DNA of 64,000 bases from Candidatus Hydrogenedentales bacterium (GCA_041859045.1 JBHELB010000039.1:9958-73957), one strand, 5' to 3'; positions 17,394 to 36,533 are shown, numbered from the stretch's first letter. A program made the numbers and translations. Notes: generated from the sequence alone by a model not told the origin.

Positions 17394-18224
17394 ATGTGGG
17401 TCACGGCGATACTACTGGCGTTTGCTGCGGCGGACGCCGCGCCACGTTTTGAGCCGATAGAAACGATCGCCGAGGGGTTTCGTGTGGCCGAGGGGCCGGT
17501 CTGGCGCGAAGGAGTGGGCCTGCTGTACTCCGATGTCCTGGACAATACCATTTACCGTGCGCCGCGCGAGGTCTATCGCCAGCCCAGTCAGGAGACCAAT
17601 GGACTGGCGTTCGATCGCGAGGGACGGCTCGTTGCCTGCGAACACGCCGCGCGCCGCGTGACGCGCACGGAGAACAACGGCGCACAGACAGTGATTGCGG
17701 AACAGTATCAGGGGAAACGCTTCAACAGTCCCAACGACGTGGCGATCCGTTCGGACGGACTCATTTACTTCACAGACCCACCGTATGGCGTCGCTCCTGC
17801 CGATAGGGAGCTTTCTTTTTCGGGGGTGTATGCGGTGCGGCCCGGAGAGCCTGCGCGGCTCGTGGCGCGGCGCGGGTTCACACACCCCAACGGGGTGACC
17901 CTGAGCCCGGACGAGCGTTATGCGTATGTTAGCGACTCCGAACAAGGATTTGTGCGGCGCTACCGTGTGAAAGCGGATGGCGCGTTGACGCGCGGACGCA
18001 CGTTCTGCCGCGTTCCGACGCCGGACGGGATGAAGACAGACCCTGCCGGTCGGTTGTGGATTGCGGCGCGGGACGGCGTGCGCGTGTACAGCCCAGGCGG
18101 GGCGCTGCTCACGACGCTACGCGTGCCCGGTCAGCCCACGAACTGCGTGCTTGGAGGCGCGAACGGGCGTACGCTTTACGTCACCACGTTCACCGCGGTC
18201 TACCGTGTGGAATGGACGGATTAG
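17394..18224 (+). CDS. SMP-30/gluconolactonase/LRE family protein
   Basis: Six-bladed propeller family motifs (EGPVW, NGLAFD, FNSPNDV, TDP, NGV). Confidence 0.7.
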   Translation: MWVTAILLAFAAADAAPRFEPIETIAEGFRVAEGPVWREGVGLLYSDVLDNTIYRAPREVYRQPSQETNGLAFDREGRLVACEHAARRVTRTENNGAQTVIAEQYQGKRFNSPNDVAIRSDGLIYFTDPPYGVAPADRELSFSGVYAVRPGEPARLVARRGFTHPNGVTLSPDERYAYVSDSEQGFVRRYRVKADGALTRGRTFCRVPTPDGMKTDPAGRLWIAARDGVRVYSPGGALLTTLRVPGQPTNCVLGGANGRTLYVTTFTAVYRVEWTD

Positions 18225-18835
18225 GCGTCGAGGAATCCTGCCCTGCGCCGGAGTTCGGTCATGTCGAACGCGGGGCCGGGGTCGATCTTGCGGCCGGGGG
18301 CGATGTCGCGGTGGCCGACGATCTCCGTGAGCGGGTACGCATCGCGCAACGCCTGGCAAACCGCAGCGCAGGAGTCGAATTGCGCCGCAGGAAACGCTTC
18401 CCACCAGGATTGGGAACCGCTGGGGTGCGTGGTACAGAGGAGTCCGCGTTCGCGAGGCAATTCGACGCCGGTTGACGTAATCAAATTCCCTGAGGATAGC
18501 GGCAGGCACGGCCCGTAGTTGGCGAGTTCGATGCCGATGCTAAAGTGGTTGAGGTCGGTGCGTCCTTTCCACGCGCTGCGCCCGGCGTGAAACGCACGAC
18601 GGTTGAACGGCACAAGCTGCGTGACGGCGCCGTCGCGATCGATGACCAAATGCGCGGACAAATAGTTCTCGTCCTTCGCGCACAGCCACTCGATGCTGCC
18701 TCGGGCCGAGCCGCCGCCGGTGTAGTGAATCACGATGAGGTCCGGCGCGATCTCGCCGCCGTGGTCGGGACTCGGAACAAAACGCACGTCAACTAACCGA
18801 TGCGTTTGCCGATCTACTGCTGAAAGGGTTGTCAT
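18221..18835 (-). CDS. N-acetylmuramoyl-L-alanine amidase (amidase_2, AmpD-like)
   Basis: IVIHYTGG and HAGRSAWKGRTDLNHFSIGIELANYG motifs; start at MTTLSAV. Confidence 0.7.
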   Translation of the reverse strand: MTTLSAVDRQTHRLVDVRFVPSPDHGGEIAPDLIVIHYTGGGSARGSIEWLCAKDENYLSAHLVIDRDGAVTQLVPFNRRAFHAGRSAWKGRTDLNHFSIGIELANYGPCLPLSSGNLITSTGVELPRERGLLCTTHPSGSQSWWEAFPAAQFDSCAAVCQALRDAYPLTEIVGHRDIAPGRKIDPGPAFDMTELRRRAGFLDA

Positions 18836-18910
18836 TTTCTGCTCTCCGCCGCTGCCCATCGTCTCTATACGAGAGACCGGCGCGTTGCAGCGGAGGCGTA
18901 GCGGAAGGCG

Positions 18911-19345
18911 CTACGAGATTGTGCGGGCGATGGTGCCGAGGTAATCGACGAACATGGCGAATTCCATGTTCTGACTAAACGTCTCGGCGAGTTGAAGGGC
19001 GACGAGGCTGCGGCTGTCTTCCAGGCTTCTGACGCGGATGACGCGGGCATCGCCCGTGAAGGATTCGGGGAGGAAGAGGTCCGACGGGCATGGGCCCGTC
19101 GGGAGAATCAGCGAGACAACCATGCCGGGGGTGAGACGATGTTTGGTGAGTGCCCAAATGCCAGTGGTGGAAATGTCCTGGACGATGGCCGGGCCGATGA
19201 GGTGTTGACGCGTGCCGGGGATTTCCACGGAAAGCGTCGCCTTGAGTAAGAAGCGGTGGCGCTTGGCACGGCGTCGCTCATGATTCCGCTCGAAGGGATC
19301 ATCCCATGCGGCATCGACGTCGTATCTACGCAGTGCGGTACTCAT
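18911..19345 (-). CDS. PilZ domain protein
   Basis: RRxxR and D-I-S-T-T-G c-di-GMP binding motifs. Confidence 0.7.
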   Translation of the reverse strand: MSTALRRYDVDAAWDDPFERNHERRRAKRHRFLLKATLSVEIPGTRQHLIGPAIVQDISTTGIWALTKHRLTPGMVVSLILPTGPCPSDLFLPESFTGDARVIRVRSLEDSRSLVALQLAETFSQNMEFAMFVDYLGTIARTIS

Positions 19346-19621
19346 CGTTTATGTGCCTGTGGACGGCACCCCCTGATTGTGAGGTCCCCAGGATCTCATT
19401 CATCCTTGGCATATAATACCAGACTACGCGGTATGTTTCAACAGAAATTTCTGCTTGCTCACTTTTAGTCTAATTATGGTCGTTTGGGTTTTGGTGGATG
19501 GTCCGGTTTCTGGGGGATTGTATTCCTGGATGAGCGGAGCGGCGCGTTGCGGTGACGGGGGAGAGGTGCTAGACTTTTTCGTGGCGGAGTGTCCCTGGAC
19601 TACGAAGGAAGGAGGCCTGGC

Positions 19622-20710
19622 ATGGCGGATCTCGACAAGTACCTGAAAATGATGGTCGATTTTGGGGCGTCGGACCTTCATTTTTGTACTGGGTGTAAAC
19701 CGATTTTCCGGAAGGATGGAAGCCTGACGGCGCTTCGGAACGAGGAAGTGCTGGATAGCGTGACGGCAAAACGAATGATCTATGAGATCACGCCTGCGGC
19801 GAATGAGAAGGAGTTTAATGAGGTCTGGGACTCGGATTTTGCATACGAGTTAGAGGGGGTGGGACGTTTTCGCTGCAACGCGTTCATGGACCACAAGGGG
19901 ATGGGGGCGGTGTTTCGCCTGATTCCGACCGACGTGTTGACGTGCGAGCAGCTCGGCTTGCCCGACGCGGTGAAGAAGTTTTGCACGTTGAACAAGGGGC
20001 TGGTGTTGGTGACGGGGCCGACGGGCAGCGGGAAGTCGACGACGCTGGCAGCGTTGCTGGACCAGATCAACGCGACGCGAAGCGACCACATCATCACGAT
20101 CGAGGATCCGATCGAGTTTGTGCATAAGAACAAGCGGTGTCTGGTGAATCAGCGCGAGGTGCACCGGCACACGAAGAGCTTTCGTGCGGCGCTGCGTGCG
20201 GCGCTACGTGAGGATCCGGACATCGTGCTGGTGGGCGAGATGCGCGACCTGGAGACGACGCATATTGCGATTGAGACGGCGGAAACGGGGCACCTGGTGT
20301 TTGGGACGTTGCACACGACCACGGCGATCTCGACGGTGGACCGCTTGGTGGATCAGTTCCCGCCGGAACAGCAGACCCAGATTCGCGTGATGTTGGCGTC
20401 GTCGTTGAAGGGCGTGGTGGCGCAGAATCTGTTGAAGAAAAAAGGCGGCGGGCGCGTGGGGGCGCTCGAAGTGTTGGTGGTGAATCAGGCAGTATCGGCG
20501 CTGATTCGCGACGGGAAGACGAGCCAGATCATGAGCATCATGCAGACCGCGAAGCGGGAAGGCATGACGCTGTTGAACGAAGAGTTGACGCGCTTCGTGA
20601 AAGAGGACGTGGTGGAGGCGGAAGAGGCATGGCGCAAGGCAGTGGATAAAGAAGATCTGCTGAAGCATTTTGAGTCGGCGGGGATTTCGTTCAAGGCGCC
20701 TGCGGAGTAA
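19622..20710 (+). CDS. pilT: type IV pilus twitching motility ATPase PilT
   Basis: Walker A GPTGSGKST; PilT family-wide conservation; start MADLDKYLKMM. Confidence 0.9.
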   Translation: MADLDKYLKMMVDFGASDLHFCTGCKPIFRKDGSLTALRNEEVLDSVTAKRMIYEITPAANEKEFNEVWDSDFAYELEGVGRFRCNAFMDHKGMGAVFRLIPTDVLTCEQLGLPDAVKKFCTLNKGLVLVTGPTGSGKSTTLAALLDQINATRSDHIITIEDPIEFVHKNKRCLVNQREVHRHTKSFRAALRAALREDPDIVLVGEMRDLETTHIAIETAETGHLVFGTLHTTTAISTVDRLVDQFPPEQQTQIRVMLASSLKGVVAQNLLKKKGGGRVGALEVLVVNQAVSALIRDGKTSQIMSIMQTAKREGMTLLNEELTRFVKEDVVEAEEAWRKAVDKEDLLKHFESAGISFKAPAE

Positions 20711-20763
20711 GGGGGAAGAACACGGACTGACACGGAGAGAGATAGAGAGAGACGAGGGTGATG

Positions 20764-20798
20764 CGCCCGGCACAGATGCCGGGCGCATTTGTTTTTTG
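20764..20798 (+). terminator. rho-independent terminator (9-bp stem gcgcccggc / gccgggcgc followed by T-run)
   Basis: Perfect inverted repeat with 6-nt loop followed by atttgttttttgg, 54 nt after the pilT stop. Confidence 0.8.
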
Positions 20799-20859
20799 GG
20801 TCAGCGCGCTGCAACGCGGTGGGCGGGTTGATGAATGGAGTCAACAGCGAGGTGAGGCG

Positions 20860-22110
20860 ATGGTGAACTGGCTGGGCTGGTGGAAGCGAGGCGCGGGGGC
20901 GCGTGTGGAGCAGAGGTCGCCGGGCGAACGATTTGGGACGGTGTCGTTGACGGAGGACATGAGGGGCTTGATGCGGGCGGGGGAATCCTTTGTTCGGCTT
21001 CCGAGCGAGACGCCGTTCGCGATGCTCGAAGTGTACCGGTTTTTGCGCGATGCGATTCCGGATGTTAGCGACGCGGTGTGGACGTGGAAGCGCTTGTGTC
21101 AGACCGGCTACGACGTGGAGATTTTAGAGGCGTCGTCGGAGATGGCGCGCGCTCGGGCGGAGCGCCTGCTGAAGGCCCTGGACCGGCGGGTGAATAGCGG
21201 GGACCGCGGGATGGACGGTCTGCTGGACGTGTTTTATGCGTCGCTGTTTACGTATGGCGCGGCGGCGTTGGAGATTGTGCTGTCGCCGAGCCGGGAGTCG
21301 ATTGCGGACGTGGTGCCGGTGGACGTTTGGACGGTGCGGTTCAAGCGTGAACGTGGGCAGTTGCAGCCGTATCAGGTGATCGATGGGGAAGAGATTCGGT
21401 TGCCCCGCGAGCGGTTCGTGTATGTGGGGTTGGACCGCGACGGGACAAATCCTTATGGGCGCTCGATGCTTCGCTCAATCCCGTTTGTGGTGAAGATTCA
21501 GCAGCGGCTGATCGAAGACATGGCGAAGGCGACGCACAACGCGGGGTGGGCGAAGCTGCACGTGAAGTATTCGCCGGAGTCGCGCGAGCGCGGGGAGTCG
21601 GTGGAGGCATATGGGCAGCGGATCGCGGGGAACTTTGAGGCGCTGCGCACGCGGCTGAGCGGGTTGGAGGCGGATCAGAATCTGGTGACGTACGACAACG
21701 TGGACGTGTCGTTGATCCGGGGGGATTCGCAGAGCCGGATTTTCTACGACAACCTGAAGGCGATTGAGGAGCAGGTGATCACGGGGATGCACTTGATGCC
21801 GATCCTGATGGGCCGGAATTACGGGACGACGGAAACGTATGGAACGGCGCAGTTCGAGATCGTGAATCGTCAGGTGGAGGCGGTGAACCGCAGCGTGAAG
21901 CGGATTTTGGAGCGCCTCTACAACTTCGAGCTGGCGCTGATGTGGGGCGAGGCGCGGGCGCGCGTGCGGATGCGGACGAATCGGACGGTGGATGTGCTGA
22001 AAGAGGCGACGGCGCGTGGAAAAGAGATTGCGAATGTGTTGGCGCTGCGCGACGCGGGTCTGATGGATGCGGCGGGGACTGCGGAGATGCTGGGAATTGG
22101 CGGGAACTAG
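20860..22110 (+). CDS. phage portal protein-like (HK97-family-like)
   Basis: Start MVNWLGWW after the terminator (RBS gaggtgagg). Motifs resembling portal family consensus: G..L..FYASL..G.AALEI, NPYGRSML, C-terminal IEEQVITGMHLMPILMG. Confidence 0.6.
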   Translation: MVNWLGWWKRGAGARVEQRSPGERFGTVSLTEDMRGLMRAGESFVRLPSETPFAMLEVYRFLRDAIPDVSDAVWTWKRLCQTGYDVEILEASSEMARARAERLLKALDRRVNSGDRGMDGLLDVFYASLFTYGAAALEIVLSPSRESIADVVPVDVWTVRFKRERGQLQPYQVIDGEEIRLPRERFVYVGLDRDGTNPYGRSMLRSIPFVVKIQQRLIEDMAKATHNAGWAKLHVKYSPESRERGESVEAYGQRIAGNFEALRTRLSGLEADQNLVTYDNVDVSLIRGDSQSRIFYDNLKAIEEQVITGMHLMPILMGRNYGTTETYGTAQFEIVNRQVEAVNRSVKRILERLYNFELALMWGEARARVRMRTNRTVDVLKEATARGKEIANVLALRDAGLMDAAGTAEMLGIGGN

Positions 22111-22136
22111 CGAGGAAATGCGGGGAGGACGGCGTG

Positions 22137-22826
22137 ATGGGGTTGGAACCATTTGTATTTCGTCATTGGGGCGCGGTGATGTCGCGCGAGACGCCGGAGA
22201 ACGCGGAGGCGGACGTTGCGGCGGTGAACCAGTTCGCGTTGCGTCCGTTGGCGCGGGAGGAATTCGCGGCGTTTCGACTGGACCTCTGCAATAACCAGGT
22301 GGACCGCCATTTCAGCCGGTTCCCCGAGGAAGAGCTGACGCGAATCACGGAGATGACGCCGGGACGTCCGTTGATGGAGCGGCATGACCTGCGCGGATCG
22401 TTGCCGCGGGGAACGTTTTTTCGGGCGCAGGTGCACCGGGATAGCGAACGCGTGTCGGTGCGGCCGGATGTGTATGTGCTACGCACGCGGGAGAACGAAG
22501 ATTTCATTTTGAACATCGAGGGGGGCGTGTACCGCGAGACGTCGATCGGGTTCTCATTTCAAACGCCGGAGTGCTCGGTGTGCGGGAAGGATTTGCGCAC
22601 CTGTGATCACGTGCCGGGGCGGAGTTACGGGGATGCCTTGTGTCACTACGTGATGCGCGGGGTGCTGGAGGTCATCGAAGGGTCGGTGGTGCCTGCGGGA
22701 TCGCAGGGGACGACGTTTGTGTCGCAGACGCGGGGACTTCCGCTGGCGGAGGCGCTCGACGTGGCGCGGCGGGCGTACCACGCGCCGATCGTGTTGCGGC
22801 CAGGCCGTGCGTGGTCGGAGGAGTAG
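22137..22826 (+). CDS. hypothetical protein of phage-head cluster (Cys/His motif CSVCG...CDH)
   Basis: 229 aa, RBS ggggagg. Sits where a prohead protease or scaffold is expected, but no S78/U35 or ClpP motifs recognised. Confidence 0.5.
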   Translation: MGLEPFVFRHWGAVMSRETPENAEADVAAVNQFALRPLAREEFAAFRLDLCNNQVDRHFSRFPEEELTRITEMTPGRPLMERHDLRGSLPRGTFFRAQVHRDSERVSVRPDVYVLRTRENEDFILNIEGGVYRETSIGFSFQTPECSVCGKDLRTCDHVPGRSYGDALCHYVMRGVLEVIEGSVVPAGSQGTTFVSQTRGLPLAEALDVARRAYHAPIVLRPGRAWSEE

Positions 22827-22828
22827 AG

Positions 22829-23053
22829 GTGAAAACGGCAAGAGGTACTGACGAGCGAGGACCGGAGCGGGAGACTTGCGCGTATCACTTGGCGCACGAG
22901 GCGGAGTTCCGGGCGCTCTCGCGAGGATTGGATGAAGTGAAGGGACGCGTGCACGGCATCGAGACCAAGGTGGAGCGGGGCGTGCTGTTGCTGGTGGCGA
23001 ATCTGGTGGGTGTGGTGATGACGCTGGTGCAGCAGTTGCTGCGTTCGATGTGA
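22829..23053 (+). CDS. small hypothetical protein with C-terminal hydrophobic helix
   Basis: GTG start 3 nt after the previous stop; 74 aa; C-terminal LLLVANLVGVVMTLVQQLL. Confidence 0.4.
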   Translation: MKTARGTDERGPERETCAYHLAHEAEFRALSRGLDEVKGRVHGIETKVERGVLLLVANLVGVVMTLVQQLLRSM

Positions 23054-23062
23054 GGGGAAGAC

Positions 23063-23761
23063 ATGTACGGGAGAGTCTTTATTGAAGAGCGGGCCGGGAA
23101 CCCGGACGCGCTGGGCGAAGAGTGGGACGGGCGGTTCGTCGTGCATCGTCACCGTGATGCGGAGGGGCCGCATGTCGATTTGCGTCTGGAACAGGACGGG
23201 TTTCTGGCGGGCTGGCGGATCGCCGGGGAATTCGAGAGCGGTGCATGGGCGGAAGAGAAGGCGGCGCATCCCGTGCACTGGCTGGACCGCGACGGAGACG
23301 CGGTACGTGAGGACGCTGGGGTGTATCGCTGGATCGAGCGGGGGCCGCTGCGGCGCGTGGTGTGTCTGAAGGGCGAGCACGGCGTGCGCTGGTTGCGTGT
23401 GGAGGCGCATGAGGGGCTTCCGGCGGGCGTGGCGTGCGCGGTGCGGTGCGCGTTGGACGAAGCGGAACTGGGGCCGGAGTCGGCGCTGAGCCTGGTGAAG
23501 GATGGTCTGGTGGCGCGGAAGAGGGCGACGGCGCGGTTGCTGGGGTTGGGGCGCGAGCTGGACGGCGACGCGTTTGATGTGGAGGCCTGGCGGCGTGCGT
23601 TGGCGGGGCTCTCGCTGGAGGAGGTGCAGTCGCACCTGCGCGCGTACGAGGTGCGCTTTGACGCGAAATATCCGCCGCTTCCGGTATCGCGTCCGGAACG
23701 GCTGGACGCGGGAGCGTCAGTGCGGGGGGATGCACTGGCGATCGCGCGTGAGTCGATGTAG
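23063..23761 (+). CDS. LigD-type 3-prime-phosphoesterase (PE) domain-like protein
   Basis: N-terminal FVVHRHRDAEGPHVDLRLEQDGFLAGWRI matches the LigD PE signature FVxQxHxAxxLHYDxRLE..G.L.SWA (both His, Asp and Arg conserved). Confidence 0.5.
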   Translation: MYGRVFIEERAGNPDALGEEWDGRFVVHRHRDAEGPHVDLRLEQDGFLAGWRIAGEFESGAWAEEKAAHPVHWLDRDGDAVREDAGVYRWIERGPLRRVVCLKGEHGVRWLRVEAHEGLPAGVACAVRCALDEAELGPESALSLVKDGLVARKRATARLLGLGRELDGDAFDVEAWRRALAGLSLEEVQSHLRAYEVRFDAKYPPLPVSRPERLDAGASVRGDALAIARESM

Positions 23762-23793
23762 CGGCGAAAGAACGAAGAGAAAGGGAGACGGCT

Positions 23794-24174
23794 ATGGCGT
23801 TTGGAGATTTGGGGGGCGCGGTGACGGAACTGGTGATCACGTGTCAGACGAAGGCAAGCGGTGCGGTGAGCATTGCGCGCGGAGACGCGGTGAAGCTGGC
23901 GGGTCCGTACACGGTGGACAACGCGACGAGCGCGGAAGACGTGGTTTTTGGCGAAGCGTTGGCACCGGCGACGACGAACGGGGCGGCGATCCCTGTGAAG
24001 GTGCGCGGGATTTCGGTTCTTGCGTACACGGGAGATGCGCCGGTGGTGAATGGCGTTGTGGGGGTGTTGGCGTCGGCGACGGCGGGGAAGGTGAAGGCCC
24101 CGGCGACGGGCAACGGCGTGGGCAGGAATGTGAAGGTGGACACGGCGGCGGGGTTGGTGCACGTGTTGCTGTAG
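23794..24174 (+). CDS. small Gly/Ala/Val-rich phage head protein (DUF2190-like, decoration/cement candidate)
   Basis: 126 aa, low-complexity G/A/V-rich, immediately upstream of the capsid-like gene. Confidence 0.4.
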   Translation: MAFGDLGGAVTELVITCQTKASGAVSIARGDAVKLAGPYTVDNATSAEDVVFGEALAPATTNGAAIPVKVRGISVLAYTGDAPVVNGVVGVLASATAGKVKAPATGNGVGRNVKVDTAAGLVHVLL

Positions 24175-24198
24175 ACGGTTTGGGGAGAGGAAACGACG

Positions 24199-25248
24199 AT
24201 GGGGTATCGAGACGATATGGTGAAGGAGCGAGTGGCGTTTTTGTCGCGCGGCGCGGACGGGCTGCGTCAGGTGCGCGGGCGTGAGTTGTTTGAGACGTTG
24301 CATGGGTTGGGGCTGTCGTACGGTCAGTATTTCCGTGCGATGGGAACGAACCTGCAGGACTACTGCGCGCAGGAGTTTGGCGTGGACGTGAGCCGGATCA
24401 CGGTGGACCGGTTCTTTCAGTCGGATCCGAACGCGAAGTGGCTGTTTCCGGACATGGTGCGCGAGGCGGTCATTGCGGGAATGAAGCGCAAGCCGGTGTA
24501 CCGCGATCTGATCATCCGCGACGAGCCGGTAGTGGGTACGGCGTACGACGTGCCGTACGTTCAGGAGTCGGCGGACGACGAGGAGTTGCGCGGCGTTGCG
24601 GAAGGCGCGGCGATTCCGGAGTCGGAAATTCGCTACGGCAGCCGAATTGTACGTCTGGACAAGAAAGGGCGCGGCGTGCTGGCGTCGTACGAGGCGGTGC
24701 GCCGGATGTCGGTGGACATGCTGCGCGTTCACTTGCAGCGCATGGGCGAGCGTCTGGGCCGAAACCTGGACGCGCGTTTGGCGACGGTGTTGGTGTCGGG
24801 CGATTCGTCGGGCGCGAGCACGGCGGCGGTGACGCTGAACACGGCGACGGCGAATACGTGGACGTATGCGGACATTCTGTCGGGATTCATGAAGTTGACG
24901 TTGGACCATTACTTCACGCCGACGCACATGCTGGCGAATGGGGCGCTGACGGAGACGATCCTGAAACTCGACGAGTTCAAGGACTCGGCCCTTTTCGACT
25001 TCGCGAAAACGGGGAACCTGCCGACGCCGGTGGGCGTGAAGTTGGTGCCGATGCCGGAACAGCCGGAGAACAAGCTGACGATCCTGGACGCGGGCTATGC
25101 GGTGGAGAAACTGACGGAGCAAGACCTGTTGGTGGAAAGCGACAAGCTGATCAACCAGCAGTGGGAGCGCACGTACCTGACGGTCGTGACGGACTTCGCG
25201 GTGATCTATGAGAAGGCGCGCGTGGTGGTGCAGAGCGATTGGTCGTAG
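24199..25248 (+). CDS. putative phage major capsid protein
   Basis: 349 aa, position after portal and small decoration-like gene, balanced composition. No specific family motif recognised by eye. Confidence 0.45.
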   Translation: MGYRDDMVKERVAFLSRGADGLRQVRGRELFETLHGLGLSYGQYFRAMGTNLQDYCAQEFGVDVSRITVDRFFQSDPNAKWLFPDMVREAVIAGMKRKPVYRDLIIRDEPVVGTAYDVPYVQESADDEELRGVAEGAAIPESEIRYGSRIVRLDKKGRGVLASYEAVRRMSVDMLRVHLQRMGERLGRNLDARLATVLVSGDSSGASTAAVTLNTATANTWTYADILSGFMKLTLDHYFTPTHMLANGALTETILKLDEFKDSALFDFAKTGNLPTPVGVKLVPMPEQPENKLTILDAGYAVEKLTEQDLLVESDKLINQQWERTYLTVVTDFAVIYEKARVVVQSDWS

Positions 25249-25311
25249 CGGAGGGGGCGGCGAAGGGCGCGGGCGCGAAAGCGTTCGCGCCCTTTTGCAT
25301 GGAGATGAGAC

Positions 25312-25725
25312 ATGGCGAGCGTGGCGACGGAAGAAGGGGTGCGGGCTCGGTTTCAATGGAGCGAGGAAGACGTTCCCGAATCGCTGATCACGTTGGCGAT
25401 AGAGGATGCGCATAACCGGTTGGTGCGGGCGTTGACGGCGGAATCGTGGGGTGAAACGCCCGCGTCGGGCGTGGTGTTGGGCGAGACGTTGCTGGCGGGG
25501 GCGCAGGTGTACCGCTTGCTGGCGGCGCGCGAGGCGTTTGATCGGCGGGACGTGCGCGTAGGCGGTCAGGAGAGCGTCGGGATCGGGCGCTTCGAGGCGC
25601 TGAGCCGCACGGCGACGGCGCTGGAGGACGAGGCGTGGGCGGTGCTAGAGGCCTTTACGCGTATGCATGAGGGACGGGCTCCGATGAGTGCGTCGGACAC
25701 GGTTCCGGTGCTAGGAGAGGGATAA
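25312..25725 (+). CDS. putative head-tail connector (gp6-like) protein
   Basis: 137 aa; pattern VRARFQWSEEDVPESLITLAIEDAHNRLVRALT resembles gp6-like connector consensus. Confidence 0.35.
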   Translation: MASVATEEGVRARFQWSEEDVPESLITLAIEDAHNRLVRALTAESWGETPASGVVLGETLLAGAQVYRLLAAREAFDRRDVRVGGQESVGIGRFEALSRTATALEDEAWAVLEAFTRMHEGRAPMSASDTVPVLGEG

Positions 25726-25728
25726 GCC

Positions 25729-26412
25729 GTGGCGATCACGCTGGGAACGCTGTCGTTGGACGAACGATACGTGGCGGTGAAAGAGCGATTCGAAGAGGTC
25801 GGCGGACGCGACGAACGGCGCGTCGAGTTGACGGGACTTGTTTCCGATGTGTCGACGGTTGCGGGAATTGAGGCGCGACTGGAGGAGATTCTTCGGGAAG
25901 CGTCGACAAACCGCAGTTGGACCACATTTTCCGTGCGCGCGGGACGACGGCTATGGGTGCGGCGGTTGTCCTACGAACGCGAAGTGCAGCGCGGACGGAA
26001 GACGGGGGTATTCAAGCTGGTGTTGGAGGTGCGCGATTTCTTTGAGGAGTCGGACACGGAGACCGTGGTGACGTGGGAGGCTTTTTCGGGAAGCACGCGG
26101 GAATTTGCGAGTAGTGGGACTGGGGCGACGCCGATTTCCGCGGTGATTGTTCCGGAAGTGGACGTGACGTCGTGGGCGCTTAGCGACGGGACGAACACAC
26201 TGTCGGCGCAAGGCGTGTTCGCTGCGGGTGTGGCGATACGCGTGGATGGCGTGGCGCGGAAGGTGTGGGTTGGCGAGCGCGAGATCACGGGATATGTGGA
26301 AGGCACGTTTCCTGAGGTGCGCCCGGAAGGGACGACGTTGACGTATACCGACAGTGATGAAGGCGCGCATGCGGCGGCGATCACGGTTTCGTATCGCGAT
26401 CGGTGGTGGTAG
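25729..26412 (+). CDS. hypothetical protein (phage-like cluster)
   Basis: 227 aa, 3-nt gap from previous gene. Confidence 0.5.
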   Translation: MAITLGTLSLDERYVAVKERFEEVGGRDERRVELTGLVSDVSTVAGIEARLEEILREASTNRSWTTFSVRAGRRLWVRRLSYEREVQRGRKTGVFKLVLEVRDFFEESDTETVVTWEAFSGSTREFASSGTGATPISAVIVPEVDVTSWALSDGTNTLSAQGVFAAGVAIRVDGVARKVWVGEREITGYVEGTFPEVRPEGTTLTYTDSDEGAHAAAITVSYRDRWW

Positions 26413-26415
26413 TTC

Positions 26416-28155
26416 ATGCAATACCAAATCGAAGTGCTGGAGCAGGGCGGCTTTCGCAAGGCGGTATATGACGATGTGCTGTTGCTTGAGGCGGAGCGCG
26501 GGCAGGTGGACCGGGGCGTGCGCGTGGAGGGGTTGTTGCCGCCGGGACTGGCGGAATTGGGGCCGGGAGACCGGATCCGTGTGTTGGTGGACGGCGCGTT
26601 GTTTTGCGAGGCCCCCGTGCGCCGGGTGACGCCGCAATGGGGCGATCTCAAGACGCTGATTCTCGATAAATACGTGAACGCGCACGAGCTGGTGTACGTC
26701 GAGGCGTCAACTTCGGGGCCGGAGTGGAACAATCGGGTGCAGGTGGCGCTGTTGGCGTGTCCGGTGAAGACGGCGGTGCAGCAGGTGATTGACAGGGCGT
26801 TGGGTGCGGTTCACTACGGCGTGGCGCATACGGCATTTCCAGACGGCGCACAACGCGAGTATGCGAAGTTTGAAGCGCGGAAGACTGCAGGAAACGAACT
26901 GGAGACGGGCGGCATTTCAGCGGGCCAGTGGGTGGGCGCGCCACGGTTGGACGCGAGCGAGGCGTATGCCAAGGATGGCGACACGATCGCGGGGTTGAAG
27001 GTGGACGGCGCGGCGTGGCCGGACCTGCGGCTGCTCATGATTGACGCCGAGGAGACGTCGAAGAATGGTCACGCGGTGTCGCGTCACCCCGAGGTCACGG
27101 CGATGACGGCGGAAGAGTATGCGGCGTCGGCGTATGCGTGGCGCGCGCAACGATCGAAGGAGTCGCTGCAGGCGTTGATCGACGGGCACGGAATTGATGC
27201 GGTGGAACTGAACCCACATCGGAACGCGGCGGGCGCATTCGACGATCGCGTGGATGCGTATGGGCGCTACGTGGGGCTGATCTACGGCGGCGGACTTTGT
27301 TTCAACGCGGCAATGGTCGAGCAGGGAATGGCGGAAATCTATTTGTATGAAGAGGGCCGCTATCACGAGCCGTCGATGGCGTTGAAGGATTACTACTCGT
27401 ACGTGGGGCCGTCGGAAGACACGCTGGCGGTCGTGGGCGGGGGCCCGGTGAGCATGGCGGTGGACGCAGGGCTGATGGAGGCGTTGATGGCGCTGGCGTT
27501 GATGGGGGGCGGGTGCCGTTGGGGGGTGAGGGCGGACGGGACCGTGTGGTTTTGCGAAGCGAGTACGGCCGAGCACGTGGCGTTCGAGTCGCCGTCGGAG
27601 ACGGGCGTGAGCTGGGGGATGTCCGATATAGGTCTCGTGAACGAGTTGACATTCGAAGGAGGTGAGTTGGCGTTGCCGCTAACGAAGACCTATGCGCGAG
27701 AGGCCAGTGTCAGGCGCTACGGAAGCGCGTCGGGACGACTGGTGCATTACGGTCTTAACGCGGAGCAGGACGTAGACCGCTTGGCGGCGGCGTTACTCGA
27801 TGATTTGGCGTATCCATCGTTAACGGGCGACGTCGTGTTTCATCGGGGAAAGGGAGACGTGCATCCCGGCGAATTGATCGAAATCCGTGGAGCGCCGTTT
27901 CGGCGATATCACGAGGCATTGTCTGGGGAATGGGGCGGGCGCTACGCAGGGCGACTGGTGGGGGCGGTGGCGTCGGTGACGCACCGATTCACGGGGCGTC
28001 GCGTGCGGACGACCGCGACGCTGACGAGTCCGGGGCGCGCGGTTGAGAATCCCCTGCGGTTTATTGTGCGCAGTCAACCGAGCGAAGCGGAGATGTATGC
28101 GTTTCGATTGGACGACGAGGTGGTTGGATTGGACATGAGCTATCACCTGGACTGA
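26416..28155 (+). CDS. large hypothetical protein with embedded SNase/thermonuclease-like domain
   Basis: Residues about 190-360 (AKDGDTIAGLKVDG..RLLMIDAEETSKNGH...DAYGRYVGLIYGGGLCFNAAMVEQGMAEIY) align motif-for-motif with staphylococcal nuclease (DGDT, RLLxxDxPE, DKYGRxLAY..N..LV.G.A). Confidence 0.6.
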   Translation: MQYQIEVLEQGGFRKAVYDDVLLLEAERGQVDRGVRVEGLLPPGLAELGPGDRIRVLVDGALFCEAPVRRVTPQWGDLKTLILDKYVNAHELVYVEASTSGPEWNNRVQVALLACPVKTAVQQVIDRALGAVHYGVAHTAFPDGAQREYAKFEARKTAGNELETGGISAGQWVGAPRLDASEAYAKDGDTIAGLKVDGAAWPDLRLLMIDAEETSKNGHAVSRHPEVTAMTAEEYAASAYAWRAQRSKESLQALIDGHGIDAVELNPHRNAAGAFDDRVDAYGRYVGLIYGGGLCFNAAMVEQGMAEIYLYEEGRYHEPSMALKDYYSYVGPSEDTLAVVGGGPVSMAVDAGLMEALMALALMGGGCRWGVRADGTVWFCEASTAEHVAFESPSETGVSWGMSDIGLVNELTFEGGELALPLTKTYAREASVRRYGSASGRLVHYGLNAEQDVDRLAAALLDDLAYPSLTGDVVFHRGKGDVHPGELIEIRGAPFRRYHEALSGEWGGRYAGRLVGAVASVTHRFTGRRVRTTATLTSPGRAVENPLRFIVRSQPSEAEMYAFRLDDEVVGLDMSYHLD

Positions 28156-28170
28156 CGAGAAGGAGGGGGA

Positions 28171-28686
28171 ATGCGAGGCAAGGGGTATACGAAGACGGCC
28201 TGGCAGGTGCAGGAACGGCCCGTGTCGTCGTCGAAGCTGAACACGTGGGACGATCGTATCGAGCAGGCATTGGAGCGGGCGTTCTTTTACGTGGGGCAGA
28301 CGGCGGGTGATGAGAACGGCGTGTTGCGCGGCGCGACATCATTGGATTTGAAGACGACTCAGGCGTCGCCGGCGGGACGGAGTGTGGTGGTGAATGCGGG
28401 GTGCGCGTTGATTGCGCGATGTCCGTATCGCTTGGGGTCGAGTATGGCCACGGCGGAGGTAACGCCGCCCGCGACGTATCCGCGCGTGGATTTGGTGCAG
28501 GCGCGGCTGGACTCGTGGGATGTGAGCGTTCGTACGGGGACCGAAGCGGCGTCGCCGATGGCTCCAGAGGCGGAGGCGAACTGCATTGCGTTGGCGGAAC
28601 TGCATCTGCGGCCAGGAATGGTGAGCGTCAAGGATACGGACGACGGCGTGAATGGGTACATTGTGGATGTGCGGGCGTTCTTGTAG
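28171..28686 (+). CDS. hypothetical protein (phage-like cluster)
   Basis: 171 aa ORF, co-directional. Confidence 0.45.
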   Translation: MRGKGYTKTAWQVQERPVSSSKLNTWDDRIEQALERAFFYVGQTAGDENGVLRGATSLDLKTTQASPAGRSVVVNAGCALIARCPYRLGSSMATAEVTPPATYPRVDLVQARLDSWDVSVRTGTEAASPMAPEAEANCIALAELHLRPGMVSVKDTDDGVNGYIVDVRAFL

Positions 28687-28702
28687 AAGAGGAGAAGAAG
28701 CG

Positions 28703-29074
28703 ATGGATGGTAGCGTGAGTGAATGGGGCCTGACGTTGGCGACGATGGTGTTTGGGGCGCTGTGGACGGCGTTTCGATCGAGCGACGTGTTGGGGCGCGT
28801 GCGCGATGAACGGTTCCGAAAAGCGTTGAGCGCGTTGGAGGCGGGCGTGGAGCAGACGTACCGGACGTATGTGCGGGCGCTGAAGGAGTCGCGCGCGGAC
28901 GGGAAACTGACGGACGAGGAGCGACGCCAGGCGCGGTTGCTGGCGCGGGACACCGCGATGGCGTTTGGCCGTACGCAGGGCGTCGACGTGTTGCAGACGC
29001 TTGGGCGTGAGTACATCGACGTGTGGATCGCAAAATTGGTGAATGGCCTGAAGATCGGCGCGGGTTTGGCGTAG
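28703..29074 (+). CDS. small hypothetical protein with N-terminal TM helix (last gene of cluster)
   Basis: Start MDGSVSEWGLTLATMVFGALWTAF with RBS agaggagaag. Confidence 0.4.
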   Translation: MDGSVSEWGLTLATMVFGALWTAFRSSDVLGRVRDERFRKALSALEAGVEQTYRTYVRALKESRADGKLTDEERRQARLLARDTAMAFGRTQGVDVLQTLGREYIDVWIAKLVNGLKIGAGLA

Positions 29075-29081
29075 GGAATTC

Positions 29082-29128
29082 GGGGGGGATTCTTGCCGGA
29101 GGAGAATCTCCCCCAATCCTTTTCAAAG
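29082..29128 (+). terminator. hairpin (gggggggattct / agaatctccccc) with weak T tract
   Basis: Near-perfect inverted repeat 8 nt after the last cluster gene stop, followed by aatccttttc. Confidence 0.4.
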
Positions 29129-35638: not shown

Positions 35639-35706
35639 CGACCCTCTGCGAGTTCTCCCAGTCTTTGGTCCCGGCGCTGACGTATCTACGAAGGAATTTG
35701 TTACAC

Positions 35707-36489
35707 ATGGAATGGGTGAAGCCGAGCGTCTTTCTCGTGGGCGAGACACGCGTTGTGGACGAGGGTCTTCATGCGTACTTAGAGCACCTGGGCGTTCCAA
35801 ATTGGACCAGCGACGCCCCCAGCGACCCCGAGCGGTTGACGGAAGTCTTTGGCCGTCTGTGCTACCGGAGCTTTGAGCCGGGGTTGAACCCGAACGTGAC
35901 CCGGGTGCGCCAGGGGAACCAGCCGTACCTGAGCAACGTGGTGAAGGTGGGGCATGGCAGCGTGCTCGAACATGCCGTGTTGAACTTCATATTTGCGGAC
36001 GTAAGCCGGGTGTTTACGCACGAACTGGTGCGCCACCGGGCGGGCACGGCGATCTCGCAGGAGTCGCTGCGTTTTGTGCGGCTGGACCGGCTGTCGGCGT
36101 ATATGCCGATGCATATCCAGGAAAGCGAAGAGGGGATGGCGGTGTTCACCAAGACCCTCGAGCAGTTGGAAGAGGTGCAGAAGAGCCTGGCGCGGGTGTT
36201 TGAGGTCGAGACGGAAGAGGCGTTTTCGCGCAAGAAGAAGCTGACCTCGGCGTTCCGCCGGGTGGCGCCGGAAGGCGTGGCGACGACGGTGGGGTGGTCG
36301 TGCAATTTCCGCGCGCTGCGCCATGTGATCGAAATGCGCACCGCGCCGGACGCGGAAGAGGAAATTCGCCTGGTGTTTGGCCAGGTTTATGAACAAGTGC
36401 ACCGGCGGTATCCGAACCTCCTGGGCGACTATGAAGTCGTTGAGGCGGACGGATTGCCGTGGGTGAAGACCACGAACAAAAAAGTATAA
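35707..36489 (+). CDS. thyX: FAD-dependent thymidylate synthase ThyX
   Basis: ThyX signature RHRxxxxxxS (VRHRAGTAISQES); start MEWVKPSVFLVGETR. Confidence 0.8.
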   Translation: MEWVKPSVFLVGETRVVDEGLHAYLEHLGVPNWTSDAPSDPERLTEVFGRLCYRSFEPGLNPNVTRVRQGNQPYLSNVVKVGHGSVLEHAVLNFIFADVSRVFTHELVRHRAGTAISQESLRFVRLDRLSAYMPMHIQESEEGMAVFTKTLEQLEEVQKSLARVFEVETEEAFSRKKKLTSAFRRVAPEGVATTVGWSCNFRALRHVIEMRTAPDAEEEIRLVFGQVYEQVHRRYPNLLGDYEVVEADGLPWVKTTNKKV

Positions 36490-36533
36490 GAAGACTGTTT
36501 GTCCCAGTCGTCACGTCTTGGGAGGGACTGACC

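What the first reader, a model, noticed from the sequence alone, without database searches (positions are those of the whole stretch)
23063..28155. Biochemically complementary pair: SNase-like nuclease (makes 3-prime-phosphate ends) plus LigD-PE-like enzyme (removes 3-prime-phosphates)
SNase-family enzymes leave 3-prime-phosphate termini. LigD PE converts 3-prime-PO4 or 3-prime-ribonucleotide ends to 3-prime-OH. Having both in one phage-like operon suggests a coupled cleave-and-heal nucleic-acid processing function. That could serve DNA end preparation for packaging, or an anti-host or anti-phage role. It is not a known feature of head modules.
Basis: inference. Interest (0 to 1): 0.6.

Follow-up and report, generated by a model that had tools for sequence, protein, structure and literature searches.

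The report
Nuclease and phosphoesterase in domesticated phage particle
Both enzyme genes are real, but they are two parts of an 8-kb phage-derived particle gene cluster that Hydrogenedentota bacteria have inherited vertically and kept under selection, with the nuclease built into the tail tip and the phosphoesterase probably loaded into the capsid; that the two enzymes work as a cut-and-repair pair remains unproven.

Summary
The gene at 26416-28155 encodes a gp27/VgrG-type tail hub. It carries an inserted staphylococcal-nuclease domain whose catalytic residues are intact. The gene at 23063-23761 encodes a divergent LigD-PE-type barrel. Its metal and phosphate ligands are invariant, and it is fused to a conserved helical C-terminal domain.

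Both genes belong to a collinear block of 11 genes (20860-29074), running from portal to a small membrane protein. I found this block in 72 species genomes, nearly all Hydrogenedentota. It sits among host genes and co-diverges with them. It is under purifying selection (dN/dS 0.06-0.2). It has no terminase, integrase, tail tube or tape measure within 10 kb.

True viral relatives share only the portal, g2, g5 and capsid genes. They have a large terminase (shown in the one contig examined) and lack both enzymes.

The C-terminal domain of the PE-like protein is homologous to the C-terminal end of the phage protease/scaffold-like protein (hhalign 94%). This suggests the enzyme is loaded into the capsid.

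So the pair is best read as two particle-borne enzymes of a domesticated, GTA-like element. Direct cleave-and-heal coupling is possible but untested. Three points weaken it: the predicted opposite-end placement, a missing monoesterase-specific residue, and split loci.

The parts
20760..20797 (+). Terminator-like hairpin plus T-run after host PilT. It marks the upstream boundary of the cluster.
   Evidence: 13-pair stem with 9 GC pairs, then TGTTTTTTGG.
20860..22110 (+). Portal protein, Mu-type, 416 aa.
   Evidence: Pfam PF06074 at 2.1e-9 and phrog_3753 at 1.2e-47. The start is set after the PilT terminator and matches the 416-aa gene call.
22137..22826 (+). g2, 229 aa, phrog_16951. It is homologous to the N-terminal half of the 395-598-aa protease/scaffold-like proteins of viral relatives. 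A prohead-protease role is inferred only.
   Evidence: phrog_16951 at 1.5e-35. Invariant H83, D84, S136, E181, S183 and CxxC..CxH. No Pfam, NCBIfam or PDB hit.
22829..23053 (+). g3, a 74-aa protein with a hydrophobic C-terminal segment. Function unknown.
   Evidence: Gene call of 74 aa on Logan contigs. An ORF cluster in 21 loci. No Pfam hit.
23063..23761 (+). PE-like protein, 232 aa. The LigD-PE-type beta-barrel is aa 22-118 (nt 23126-23416). The scaffold-derived helical C-terminal domain is aa 136-216 (nt 23468-23710).
   Evidence: for the barrel and active site. for the C-terminal domain.
23794..24174 (+). g5, 126 aa, phrog_4588 virion structural protein. It sits in the decoration position before the capsid gene.
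   Evidence: phrog_4588 at 9.3e-7. Mean pairwise identity 66%. The same PHROG sits before the capsid gene in viral contig L090.
24199..25248 (+). Major capsid protein, HK97-type, 349 aa.
   Evidence: PF25209 at 4.5e-15 and phrog_3922 at 2.2e-51. Mean pairwise identity 72% across species.
25271..25300 (+). Terminator-like hairpin directly after the capsid gene.
   Evidence: 9-pair stem with 7 GC pairs, then a T-run.
25312..25725 (+). g7, 137 aa. A head-tail adaptor by position only.
   Evidence: Conserved in 65 loci. No family or PDB hit.
25729..26412 (+). Distal tail protein (Dit)-like, 227 aa.
   Evidence: PF22768 SPP1_Dit at 1.3e-5, 25.8 bits against a 25-bit cut-off, and phrog_33 at 7e-5.
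26416..28155 (+). Tail hub protein with the gp27/VgrG/Mu gp44/Tal fold, 579 aa. The inserted SNase domain is aa ~176-330 (nt 26941-27405).
28171..28686 (+). g10, 171 aa, a conserved particle protein of unknown role.
   Evidence: Weak PHROG hits to virion structural or head proteins, E about 1e-3. Found in 66-67 loci. No PDB hit.
28703..29074 (+). g11, 123 aa, with an N-terminal hydrophobic helix. A holin-like role is a guess.
   Evidence: Found in 45-46 loci. Gene call of 123 aa. No family hit.
29082..29124 (+). Terminator-like hairpin at the downstream boundary of the cluster.
   Evidence: 13-pair stem.

Best explanation
The two genes encode enzyme-bearing structural parts of one phage-derived particle. 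The particle is specified by an 11-gene chromosomal cluster (20860-29074) that Hydrogenedentota have inherited vertically and kept under selection.

Shown:
- The 579-aa protein is a gp27/VgrG-type tail hub with an inserted SNase domain. The Ca-site and catalytic residues of that domain are conserved, and it is the most conserved part of the protein.
- The 232-aa protein is a LigD-PE-type barrel with the His-His-Asp metal triad, Arg and His intact. It is fused to a helical domain homologous to the C-terminal end of the protease/scaffold-like protein of related phages.

Inferred:
- The hub displays three nuclease domains at the distal tail tip.
- The scaffold-derived domain loads the phosphoesterase into the procapsid as cargo, so it travels with, or acts on, whatever the capsid carries.
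- The two enzymes therefore act on nucleic acid at different places and steps of particle function. The nuclease acts outside, at the target cell surface. The phosphoesterase acts on 3' ends inside the head or after ejection.
- What links them is the shared particle, not a demonstrated shared substrate.
For: Anatomy:
- Pfam and PHROG assignments of portal, capsid, Dit and SNase.
- Hub fold: Foldseek E 2e-12 to 1e-9 to eCIS, Mu gp44, T5 and VgrG hubs.
- PE fold: the top seven PDB hits are all LigD PE structures.

Active sites across species genomes:
- PE-like: H30, H37, D39, R41 in 42 of 43 sequences; H69 and W73 in 43 of 43.
- SNase: R205, R284, Y285 in 67 of 67; D210 in 65 (plus 2 Glu); E213 in 66.
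- Mapping onto PaePE His42, His48, Asp50, Arg52, His84, Tyr88 uses and PMC3300020.

Domain conservation:
- SNase domain 67.8% mean pairwise identity, against 46-49% for the hub domains.
- PE-like C-terminal domain 60.9%, against 48.8% for the barrel.

Domestication:
- 72 species loci are collinear.
- Flanks are host genes in the window and in a 4-Mb contig.
- Within two synteny groups, hub identity tracks the identity of flanking host genes (r 0.76-0.95). The cluster proteins are more conserved than those flanks.
- Cluster genes co-vary with each other (r 0.63-0.84).
- GC content tracks the flanks (r 0.83).
- dN/dS is 0.06-0.2.

Cargo targeting:
- hhalign of the PE-like C-terminal domain against the C-terminal end of viral g2-like proteins gives 94% probability, E 1.4e-7, over 81 columns.
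- Those viral proteins are 395-598 aa, against 229 aa for g2 here.
- The C-terminal domain occurs only in this ~230-aa architecture: 49 representatives among 1.84 billion proteins.
Against: - No particle has been seen. All data come from MAGs and are computational.
- No large terminase, tail tube, tape measure or terminator gene lies within 10 kb in any locus. Whether a DNA-filled, tailed particle can be built at all is therefore unknown.
- The location of the SNase on the outside of the hub, and capsid loading of the PE-like protein, are inferred from homology and domain order. They are not modelled as complexes.
- The g2 protease assignment has no library support.
- The PE-like domain fails the Pfam and NCBIfam cut-offs.
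Confidence: 0.5

Rival explanations
1. The hub SNase cuts DNA or RNA and leaves 3'-phosphate ends. The PE-like enzyme then converts those same ends to 3'-OH so they can prime, recombine or be ligated. An example would be processing DNA delivered into a recipient cell, as with a gene transfer agent.
For: - Both active sites are conserved.
- Both genes are retained together in 48 loci, and their divergence is correlated (r 0.78).
- Established biochemistry fits. SNase products carry 3'-phosphates (own knowledge). [quoted passage not shown]
- Both enzymes would reach the same target cell if the capsid contents are ejected.
Against: - Correlation and co-retention hold for every gene of the block, so they are not specific to this pair.
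- The two enzymes are predicted to sit at opposite ends of the particle.
- The equivalent of PaePE Glu82, which is specific for the phosphomonoesterase reaction, is not conserved. It is Ala in 19, Gly in 11, Met in 4 and others.
- Gln40 is replaced by His in 37 of 43 sequences.
- Halves of the cluster are separated in L014, L015 and L078.
- No ligase or polymerase partner is present.
Confidence: 0.2
2. The particle is a nuclease-delivering killer, bacteriocin-like. The hub SNase is the toxic effector carried into a competitor's envelope, as with evolved VgrG or tailocin tips. The PE-like protein has an unrelated head role, for example as a scaffold.
For: - The hub fold is shared with VgrG and eCIS spikes that carry effector domains.
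- The SNase domain is the most conserved part of the protein.
- No terminase lies in cis.
Against: - A complete capsid, portal and putative protease set is conserved at 66-72% identity. A pure toxin injector would not need these.
- The SNase is an internal insertion in the hub, not a C-terminal effector extension.
- No immunity-like gene is evident in the block.
Confidence: 0.1
3. The two domains are retained as structural modules only. The SNase OB-fold would serve as a binding or adhesion domain, and the PE barrel as a scaffold core, neither with catalytic function.
For: - OB-fold SNase-like domains without activity exist, for example in Tudor-SN-type proteins (own knowledge).
- The PE-like protein sits in the scaffold position.
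Against: Catalytic and metal-binding residues are near-invariant across species that share only about 46-53% overall identity. This is hard to explain without catalysis.
Confidence: 0.08
4. The cluster is an ordinary defective prophage remnant. The two enzyme genes are accidental passengers with no joint or host-level function.
For: - The cluster lacks terminase, integrase and most tail genes, like a decayed prophage.
- Two IMG/VR entries, L077 and L078, classify fragments of it as viral.
Against: - The gene order is the same in 72 species genomes.
- dN/dS is 0.06-0.2.
- The cluster proteins are more conserved than the adjacent host genes and co-diverge with them.
- GC content is ameliorated to each host.
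- No pseudogenes were seen.
Confidence: 0.04

Closest known systems
RcGTA-type gene transfer agents (Rhodobacter capsulatus GTA and alphaproteobacterial relatives)
   Same: Both are chromosomal, vertically inherited phage-derived head-tail gene clusters under purifying selection. Neither has integration or replication genes. Both include portal, capsid, adaptor-position, Dit and hub genes, with small genes at the end that are possibly for lysis (GTA features from own knowledge).
   Different: RcGTA encodes TerS and TerL, a tail tube, a tape measure and other tail genes in the same cluster. Here none is within 10 kb. RcGTA has no SNase-bearing hub or PE-like head protein. The host phylum differs. 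DNA transfer has not been shown here.
BtI1 phage-like gene string of Bacillus thuringiensis israelensis: a gp27-type hub protein with a staphylococcal-nuclease-related domain (Hardies et al. 2007, PMC2147016)
   Same: A baseplate hub homologue carries an SNase-related domain within a chromosomal phage-like gene string. The authors noted that its purpose was obscure.
   Different: In BtI1 the domain is N-terminal and the setting is a myovirus-like element of a Firmicute. Here it is an internal insertion in a 579-aa hub. There is no sequence relationship to any GenBank phage.
LigD 3'-phosphoesterase (PE) domain and stand-alone archaeal PE proteins (PaePE 3N9B/2LJ6, CkoPE 3P43, MbaPE 3P4H)
   Same: The beta-barrel fold is shared. 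The equivalents of His42, His48, Asp50, Arg52 and His84 are invariant, and Tyr88 is Trp (PMC3300020).
   Different: - It scores below the Pfam and TIGRFAM cut-offs.
- The Glu82 equivalent is lost, and the Gln40 equivalent is mostly His.
- No recognisable equivalent of the disordered N-terminal Arg14/Asp15/Glu21 segment was seen.
- It is not linked to ligase, polymerase or Ku.
- It is fused to a phage scaffold-derived domain and encoded inside a head module.
Phage Mu gpI/gpZ-type protease-scaffold proteins, and capsid-targeted internal proteins such as T4 internal proteins and Alt, or encapsulin cargo (own knowledge)
   Same: The head module is Mu-like: the portal matches PF06074, and viral relatives have one long g2-like protein before the capsid gene. 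A C-terminal domain shared with that protein is attached to an enzyme. This is analogous to targeting sequences that load enzymes into HK97-fold shells.
   Different: A LigD-PE-type enzyme as cargo has no counterpart among the predicted viral protein structures of BFVD. Loading into the capsid is inferred, not observed.
Tail-associated lysins (Tal) and evolved VgrG spikes carrying enzymatic domains
   Same: The hub scaffold is gp27-like, it is decorated with an enzyme domain, and it is encoded directly after Dit.
   Different: The enzyme is a nuclease rather than a peptidoglycan hydrolase. It is inserted within the hub rather than appended at the C-terminus.

Membership tests
Staphylococcal nuclease (SNase, PF00565) | Profile match above the curated cut-off | tested here: met
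   30.6 bits against a 21-bit cut-off, E 4.9e-7, aa 204-314.
Staphylococcal nuclease (SNase, PF00565) | Ca-binding and catalytic residues (S. aureus D21, R35, D40, E43, R87, Y85) | tested here: met
   The equivalents D189, R205, D210, E213, R284 and Y/F282 are aligned. They are conserved in 65-67 of 67 species sequences, except Y/F282 (Tyr in 51 and Phe in 12 of 67).
Staphylococcal nuclease (SNase, PF00565) | OB-fold SNase structure | tested here: met
   Foldseek matches to SNase variants: E 2e-5, TM normalised to target 0.63-0.69, 21% identity.
Staphylococcal nuclease (SNase, PF00565) | Ca-dependent cleavage that leaves 3'-phosphate ends | not testable with these tools
   This needs enzymology.
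LigD 3'-phosphoesterase superfamily (PF13298 / TIGR02777) | Profile match above the curated cut-off | tested here: not met
   Pfam gives 15.6 bits against 31.1. TIGR02777 gives 21 bits against 144.
LigD 3'-phosphoesterase superfamily (PF13298 / TIGR02777) | Eight-stranded PE beta-barrel fold | tested here: met
   The top seven Foldseek PDB hits are 3P4H, 3N9B, 3P43, 3N9D, 5DMP and 2LJ6, at E 8.6e-6 to 7e-4.
LigD 3'-phosphoesterase superfamily (PF13298 / TIGR02777) | Mn ligands His42, His48, Asp50, plus Arg52 and His84, which are essential for both activities | tested here: met
   H30, H37, D39 and R41 are kept in 42 of 43 sequences, and H69 in 43 of 43. Residue roles are from PMC3300020.
LigD 3'-phosphoesterase superfamily (PF13298 / TIGR02777) | Tyr88 | tested here: inconclusive
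   It is replaced by an invariant Trp (W73, 43 of 43). The residue is aromatic, but the substitution is untested.
LigD 3'-phosphoesterase superfamily (PF13298 / TIGR02777) | Monoesterase-specific residues (Glu82, Gln40, N-terminal Arg14/Asp15/Glu21) | tested here: not met
   - The Glu82 equivalent is Ala, Gly, Met, Arg or Pro.
- The Gln40 equivalent is His in 37 and Gln in 5 of 43 sequences.
- No alignable N-terminal segment was found.
LigD 3'-phosphoesterase superfamily (PF13298 / TIGR02777) | Association with NHEJ genes (ligase, polymerase, Ku) | tested here: not met
   No such genes are in the cluster, in the 64-kb window, or in any locus.
gp27/VgrG/Tal baseplate hub | Hub fold, and a position directly after Dit | tested here: met
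   Foldseek E 2e-12 to 1e-9 to 7B5H, 8V3W, 3D37, 1WRU, 7ZQP and 8GRA. The gene follows the Dit-like gene.
Gene transfer agent (RcGTA-like domesticated particle) | A chromosomal phage-like structural cluster that is vertically inherited and under purifying selection | tested here: met
Gene transfer agent (RcGTA-like domesticated particle) | A terminase for DNA packaging, encoded with the cluster | tested here: not met
   No TerL-like ORF family lies within 10 kb in 72 loci or in the window. The viral relative L090 has TerL next to its portal gene. Locations elsewhere in the genomes were not searchable.
Gene transfer agent (RcGTA-like domesticated particle) | Particles package random host DNA and transfer it | not testable with these tools
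   This needs particle purification and sequencing.
Prophage (intact or recently defective) | Integrase, att sites, replication, lysogeny and terminase genes; a mobile distribution | tested here: not met
   - Host genes flank the cluster.
- It co-diverges with those flanks.
- The SNase-hub protein and the PE-like protein have no match in GenBank phages.
- The SNase-hub profile has no relative in IMG/VR.
Encapsulin nanocompartment | An HK97-fold shell with targeted cargo and no portal or tail | tested here: not met
   Portal, Dit and hub genes are present and conserved. Only the cargo-targeting analogy holds.

The most novel reading that the evidence does not exclude
Hydrogenedentota carry a previously undescribed, phylum-wide domesticated phage particle that may be GTA-like.
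- Relative to its phage relatives, it has lost the terminase gene that in the one viral contig examined (L090) lies directly upstream of the portal.
- It has acquired two nucleic-acid enzymes built into structural proteins. One is an active SNase in the tail hub. The other is a LigD-PE-type phosphoesterase loaded into the capsid through a scaffold-derived domain.
- This would be the first case of an end-healing enzyme as capsid cargo.
- In the boldest version, the two enzymes cooperate to cut and heal nucleic-acid ends during delivery to a recipient cell.
Probability: 0.4. Interest if true: 0.8.

Novelty: new variant of a known kind. Interest (0 to 1): 0.62.

Why it matters
Domesticated phage particles such as GTAs and tailocins are known from only a few lineages. 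A conserved, selected particle module across an uncultivated phylum would add a new lineage and a new architecture. That architecture has no terminase in cis, a minimal tail and built-in enzymes.

A LigD-PE-type phosphoesterase attached to a scaffold-derived domain would be a new kind of capsid cargo and a new biological context for the PE superfamily. It would also be a natural example of enzyme loading into an HK97-type shell.

A nuclease that is the best-conserved part of a tail hub poses a concrete question: what does a tail tip do with nucleic acid? That question is testable with recombinant proteins.

Tried and rejected
- **Family libraries.** Profiles of g2, g5, g7 and g10 against PDB sequences found nothing, or only chance hits. 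Pfam and NCBIfam gave nothing for g2, g7, g10 and g11, and only chance-level sub-threshold NCBIfam hits for g5. g3 and g11 gave no Pfam hit. PADLOC gave nothing for g2, PE-like, g5, g7, SNase-hub, g10 or g11. The protease, adaptor and holin labels therefore remain guesses.\n- **M15 peptidase reading.** My reading of the 163-aa accessory gene as an M15 peptidase got no Pfam support. A homologue in L078 gave only a sub-threshold hit (E 0.005).\n- **Phage databases.** tblastn of the SNase-hub and the PE-like protein against GenBank phages found no match. An IMG/VR scan with the hub profile found no relative.\n- **PilT.** The PilT gene directly upstream was considered as a possible partner ATPase and rejected. 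It is not conserved next to the cluster in any other locus, and a terminator separates it from the portal gene.\n- **GC skew.** The elevated GC skew of the cluster was considered as a sign of foreign origin and rejected. It is a third-codon-position effect shared with PilT and is absent in other species, while GC content matches the flanks.\n- **Literature.** Searches for Hydrogenedentes or Hydrogenedentota with gene transfer agent, capsid or prophage, and for LigD PE with capsid and phage, found nothing relevant.\n- **Not done.** I ran no further search on a terminase query, because the output cannot be restricted to Hydrogenedentota.

Full report
**Observation.**
The + strand between 20.8 and 29.1 kb carries a tight run of ORFs.
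- The 579-aa protein matches Pfam SNase above the curated cut-off (30.6 bits against 21).
- A direct alignment to S. aureus nuclease shows equivalents of D21, R35, D40, E43, Y85 and R87.
- The 232-aa protein matches LigD_N only below cut-off: Pfam gives 15.6 bits against 31.1, and TIGR02777 gives 21 bits against 144.
- It does hit the archaeal PE structures 3P43 and 3P4H by sequence.
- Its AlphaFold model (pLDDT 89) has LigD PE structures as its seven best PDB matches.

So both domain assignments stand. The second is a divergent member of its superfamily.

**What the two proteins are.**
- The model of the 579-aa protein (pLDDT 83) matches baseplate hubs over its whole length. These include eCIS, diffocin, Mu gp44, T5 pb3, VgrG and T4 gp27, at E 2e-12 to 1e-7.
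- It matches SNase structures only over aa ~176-330. It is therefore a tail hub with an inserted nuclease domain, encoded directly after a Dit-like gene.
- In 67 species sequences the catalytic set is essentially invariant.
- The SNase domain is the most conserved part of the protein, at 67.8% mean pairwise identity against 46-49% for the hub domains.
- The 232-aa protein has a beta-barrel (aa 22-118) followed by helices.
- Mapping onto P. aeruginosa LigD PE through the 2LJ6 alignment places H30, H37 and D39 on the Mn ligands His42, His48 and Asp50. R41 falls on Arg52, H69 on His84 and W73 on Tyr88.
- These residues are required for both PE activities (PMC3300020). They are kept in 42-43 of 43 species sequences.
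- The equivalent of Glu82, implicated specifically in 3'-phosphomonoesterase activity, is not conserved. The Gln40 equivalent is His in 37 and Gln in 5 of 43.

**Context in the window.**
The genes form one block:
- portal (20860-22110);
- g2 (phrog_16951);
- a 74-aa gene, g3;
- the PE-like gene;
- g5 (phrog_4588);
- the HK97-type capsid gene;
- g7;
- a Dit-like gene;
- the SNase-hub gene;
- g10;
- a 123-aa membrane protein, g11.

Terminator-like hairpins bracket the block and one follows the capsid gene. Everything else in the 64-kb window is ordinary host sequence. This includes PilT, an amidase, an alginate-export porin, transporters, RNR, ThyX and two-component genes. There is no terminase, integrase, tail tube or tape measure.

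**Related loci.**
- Homologues of both proteins number in the hundreds. They have nearly fixed lengths and 45-60% identity. Where named, they come almost all from Hydrogenedentes/Hydrogenedentota MAGs, on contigs up to 4 Mb.
- A scan of one genome per species found 72 loci.
- tblastn shows the same gene order wherever the contig reaches. PE-like is present in 48 of the 50 loci that extend upstream as far as the g5/PE-like position.
- The flanks differ across the phylum but are shared within subclades.
- Within two such groups, pairwise identity of the hub protein correlates with that of flanking host genes (r 0.76-0.95). The particle proteins are more conserved than the flanks: 61-83% against 40-54%, except DJ-1 at 84%.
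- Cluster genes co-vary with each other (r 0.63-0.84).
- Cluster GC content tracks flank GC content (r 0.83).
- dN/dS for close pairs is 0.06-0.2 for the PE-like, hub, capsid and portal genes.

This is the signature of a vertically inherited, selected host element, not of a mobile or decaying prophage.

**Relation to real phages.**
- Neither enzyme-bearing protein has any match in GenBank phages.
- The hub profile finds nothing in IMG/VR.
- No BFVD viral structure resembles the PE-like model.
- A capsid profile finds two IMG/VR fragments of the same cluster. It then finds 46 viral contigs at only 21-34% capsid identity.
- Those contigs share portal, a g2-like gene and the capsid gene, but nothing else of the block. 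None has PE-like, Dit-like, hub or g10.
- In one of them, L090, TerL lies directly upstream of the portal gene. Its g2-like protein is 557 aa, followed by a phrog_4588 protein and the capsid gene.
- Across 38 viral loci the g2-like protein is 395-598 aa, against 229 aa here.
- Profile-profile comparison shows that the helical C-terminal domain of the PE-like protein (aa 136-216) is homologous to the C-terminal end of those long viral proteins. The match has probability 94%, E 1.4e-7, over 81 columns. A single-sequence comparison gave only 41%.
- That C-terminal domain occurs nowhere else: 49 representatives among 1.84 billion proteins, all in the same ~230-aa architecture or as fragments, apart from one 867-aa protein with ten repeated matches that was not examined.

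I infer that the ancestral protease/scaffold-type gene was split, and that its capsid-directed C-terminal end now carries a PE barrel. The PE-like enzyme would then be loaded into the capsid.

**Mechanism.**
Shown:
- two conserved active sites;
- the hub identity of the 579-aa protein;
- the scaffold-derived domain of the PE-like protein;
- vertical inheritance and purifying selection.

Inferred:
- The particle displays a nuclease at its tail tip and carries a phosphoesterase in its head.
- The two enzymes act at different places and steps.

It is not specifically supported, for four reasons:
- The co-conservation is that of the whole block.
- The enzymes are predicted to sit at opposite ends of the particle.
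- The monoesterase-specific Glu is missing.
- The halves can be separated. L014 and L015 start at g5 with host genes upstream. L078 has the head half, including PE-like, followed by a weak M15-like gene and a g11-like gene, with no tail genes.

I give the coupling about 0.2.

**Known comparators.**
- The nearest concept is an RcGTA-type gene transfer agent. The missing cis terminase and tail genes mean it cannot be filed as one.
- A hub with an SNase-related domain was noted once, in the B. thuringiensis BtI1 element, with no explanation (PMC2147016).
- Literature searches found no description of this Hydrogenedentota cluster, or of a PE-type enzyme in a head module.

**Limits.**
- All genomes are MAGs, and some carry odd taxonomic labels.
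- No multimer models were possible.
- Genes elsewhere in these genomes could not be searched.
- The roles of g2, g3, g5, g7, g10 and g11 rest on position only.

**Verdict.**
The main result is a conserved domesticated particle module with two built-in enzymes. It is a new variant of a known kind, with interest about 0.6.

Noticed in passing
window 19589-29074: Cluster genes and the upstream PilT gene strongly prefer G over C at third codon positions (skew +0.37 to +0.56). Downstream host genes are near zero. In 28 other species the cluster's overall GC skew averages only +0.06, so this is specific to this genome. It remains unexplained.
   Followed up: partly
L003, L010, L012, L013, L015, L020, L030, L042, L044, L062 (e.g. 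L030:4148-5506): Ten loci carry an extra 450-500-aa protein with an N-terminal anchor and Gly/Asp-rich repeats. Where its position was checked it lies between g2 and the PE-like gene. It has no Pfam match and is absent from the window.
   Followed up: partly
26 loci, e.g. L042:12267-12758; L078:5787-6272: A ~163-aa accessory gene sits between g10 and g11 in 26 loci. The only support for a Peptidase_M15 reading is a sub-threshold hit (E 0.005) to the L078 homologue. With the membrane protein g11 it might form a lysis cassette. It is absent from the window.
   Followed up: partly
L014:1-7650, L015, L078:1-7881: Split variants exist. L014 and L015 begin at g5 and the capsid gene, with host genes upstream and no portal, g2 or PE-like. 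IMG/VR contig L078 has portal through capsid genes including PE-like, then the M15-like gene and a g11-like gene, but no g7, Dit, SNase-hub or g10. Whether the missing halves lie elsewhere is unknown.
   Followed up: partly
loci L004, L006, L013, L017, L023, L025, L034, L041, L052 and others: MAG records carrying this Hydrogenedentota-type cluster are labelled Nitrospirales/Nitrospiraceae, Bathyarchaeia, Rhodothermaeota, FCB group or Vicinamibacterales. These are probably labelling or binning errors.
   Followed up: no
window 25271-25300: A strong terminator-like hairpin (9 pairs, 7 GC, then a T-run) lies directly after the capsid gene. It could attenuate transcription into the tail genes.
   Followed up: no
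L077 and L078 (IMGVR_UViG_3300025589_000772, IMGVR_UViG_3300036961_000458): Two IMG/VR 'viral' contigs are fragments of this chromosomal cluster. L078 has a host-like TPR gene upstream of its portal gene, and L077 has no long ORF in the 2.7 kb upstream of its portal gene. L077's ORFs look AT-rich (composition not measured).
   Followed up: partly
window 18221-18859 (-) and 18911-19345 (-): A host Amidase_2 (N-acetylmuramoyl-L-alanine amidase) gene and a small ORF lie just upstream of PilT. They are not conserved next to the cluster elsewhere, so they are probably unrelated to it.
   Followed up: partly
window 35665-38609: ThyX (flavin-dependent thymidylate synthase) lies directly upstream of a class II (B12-dependent) ribonucleotide reductase, and the two ORFs overlap. 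This is host nucleotide metabolism, noted only in passing.
   Followed up: no
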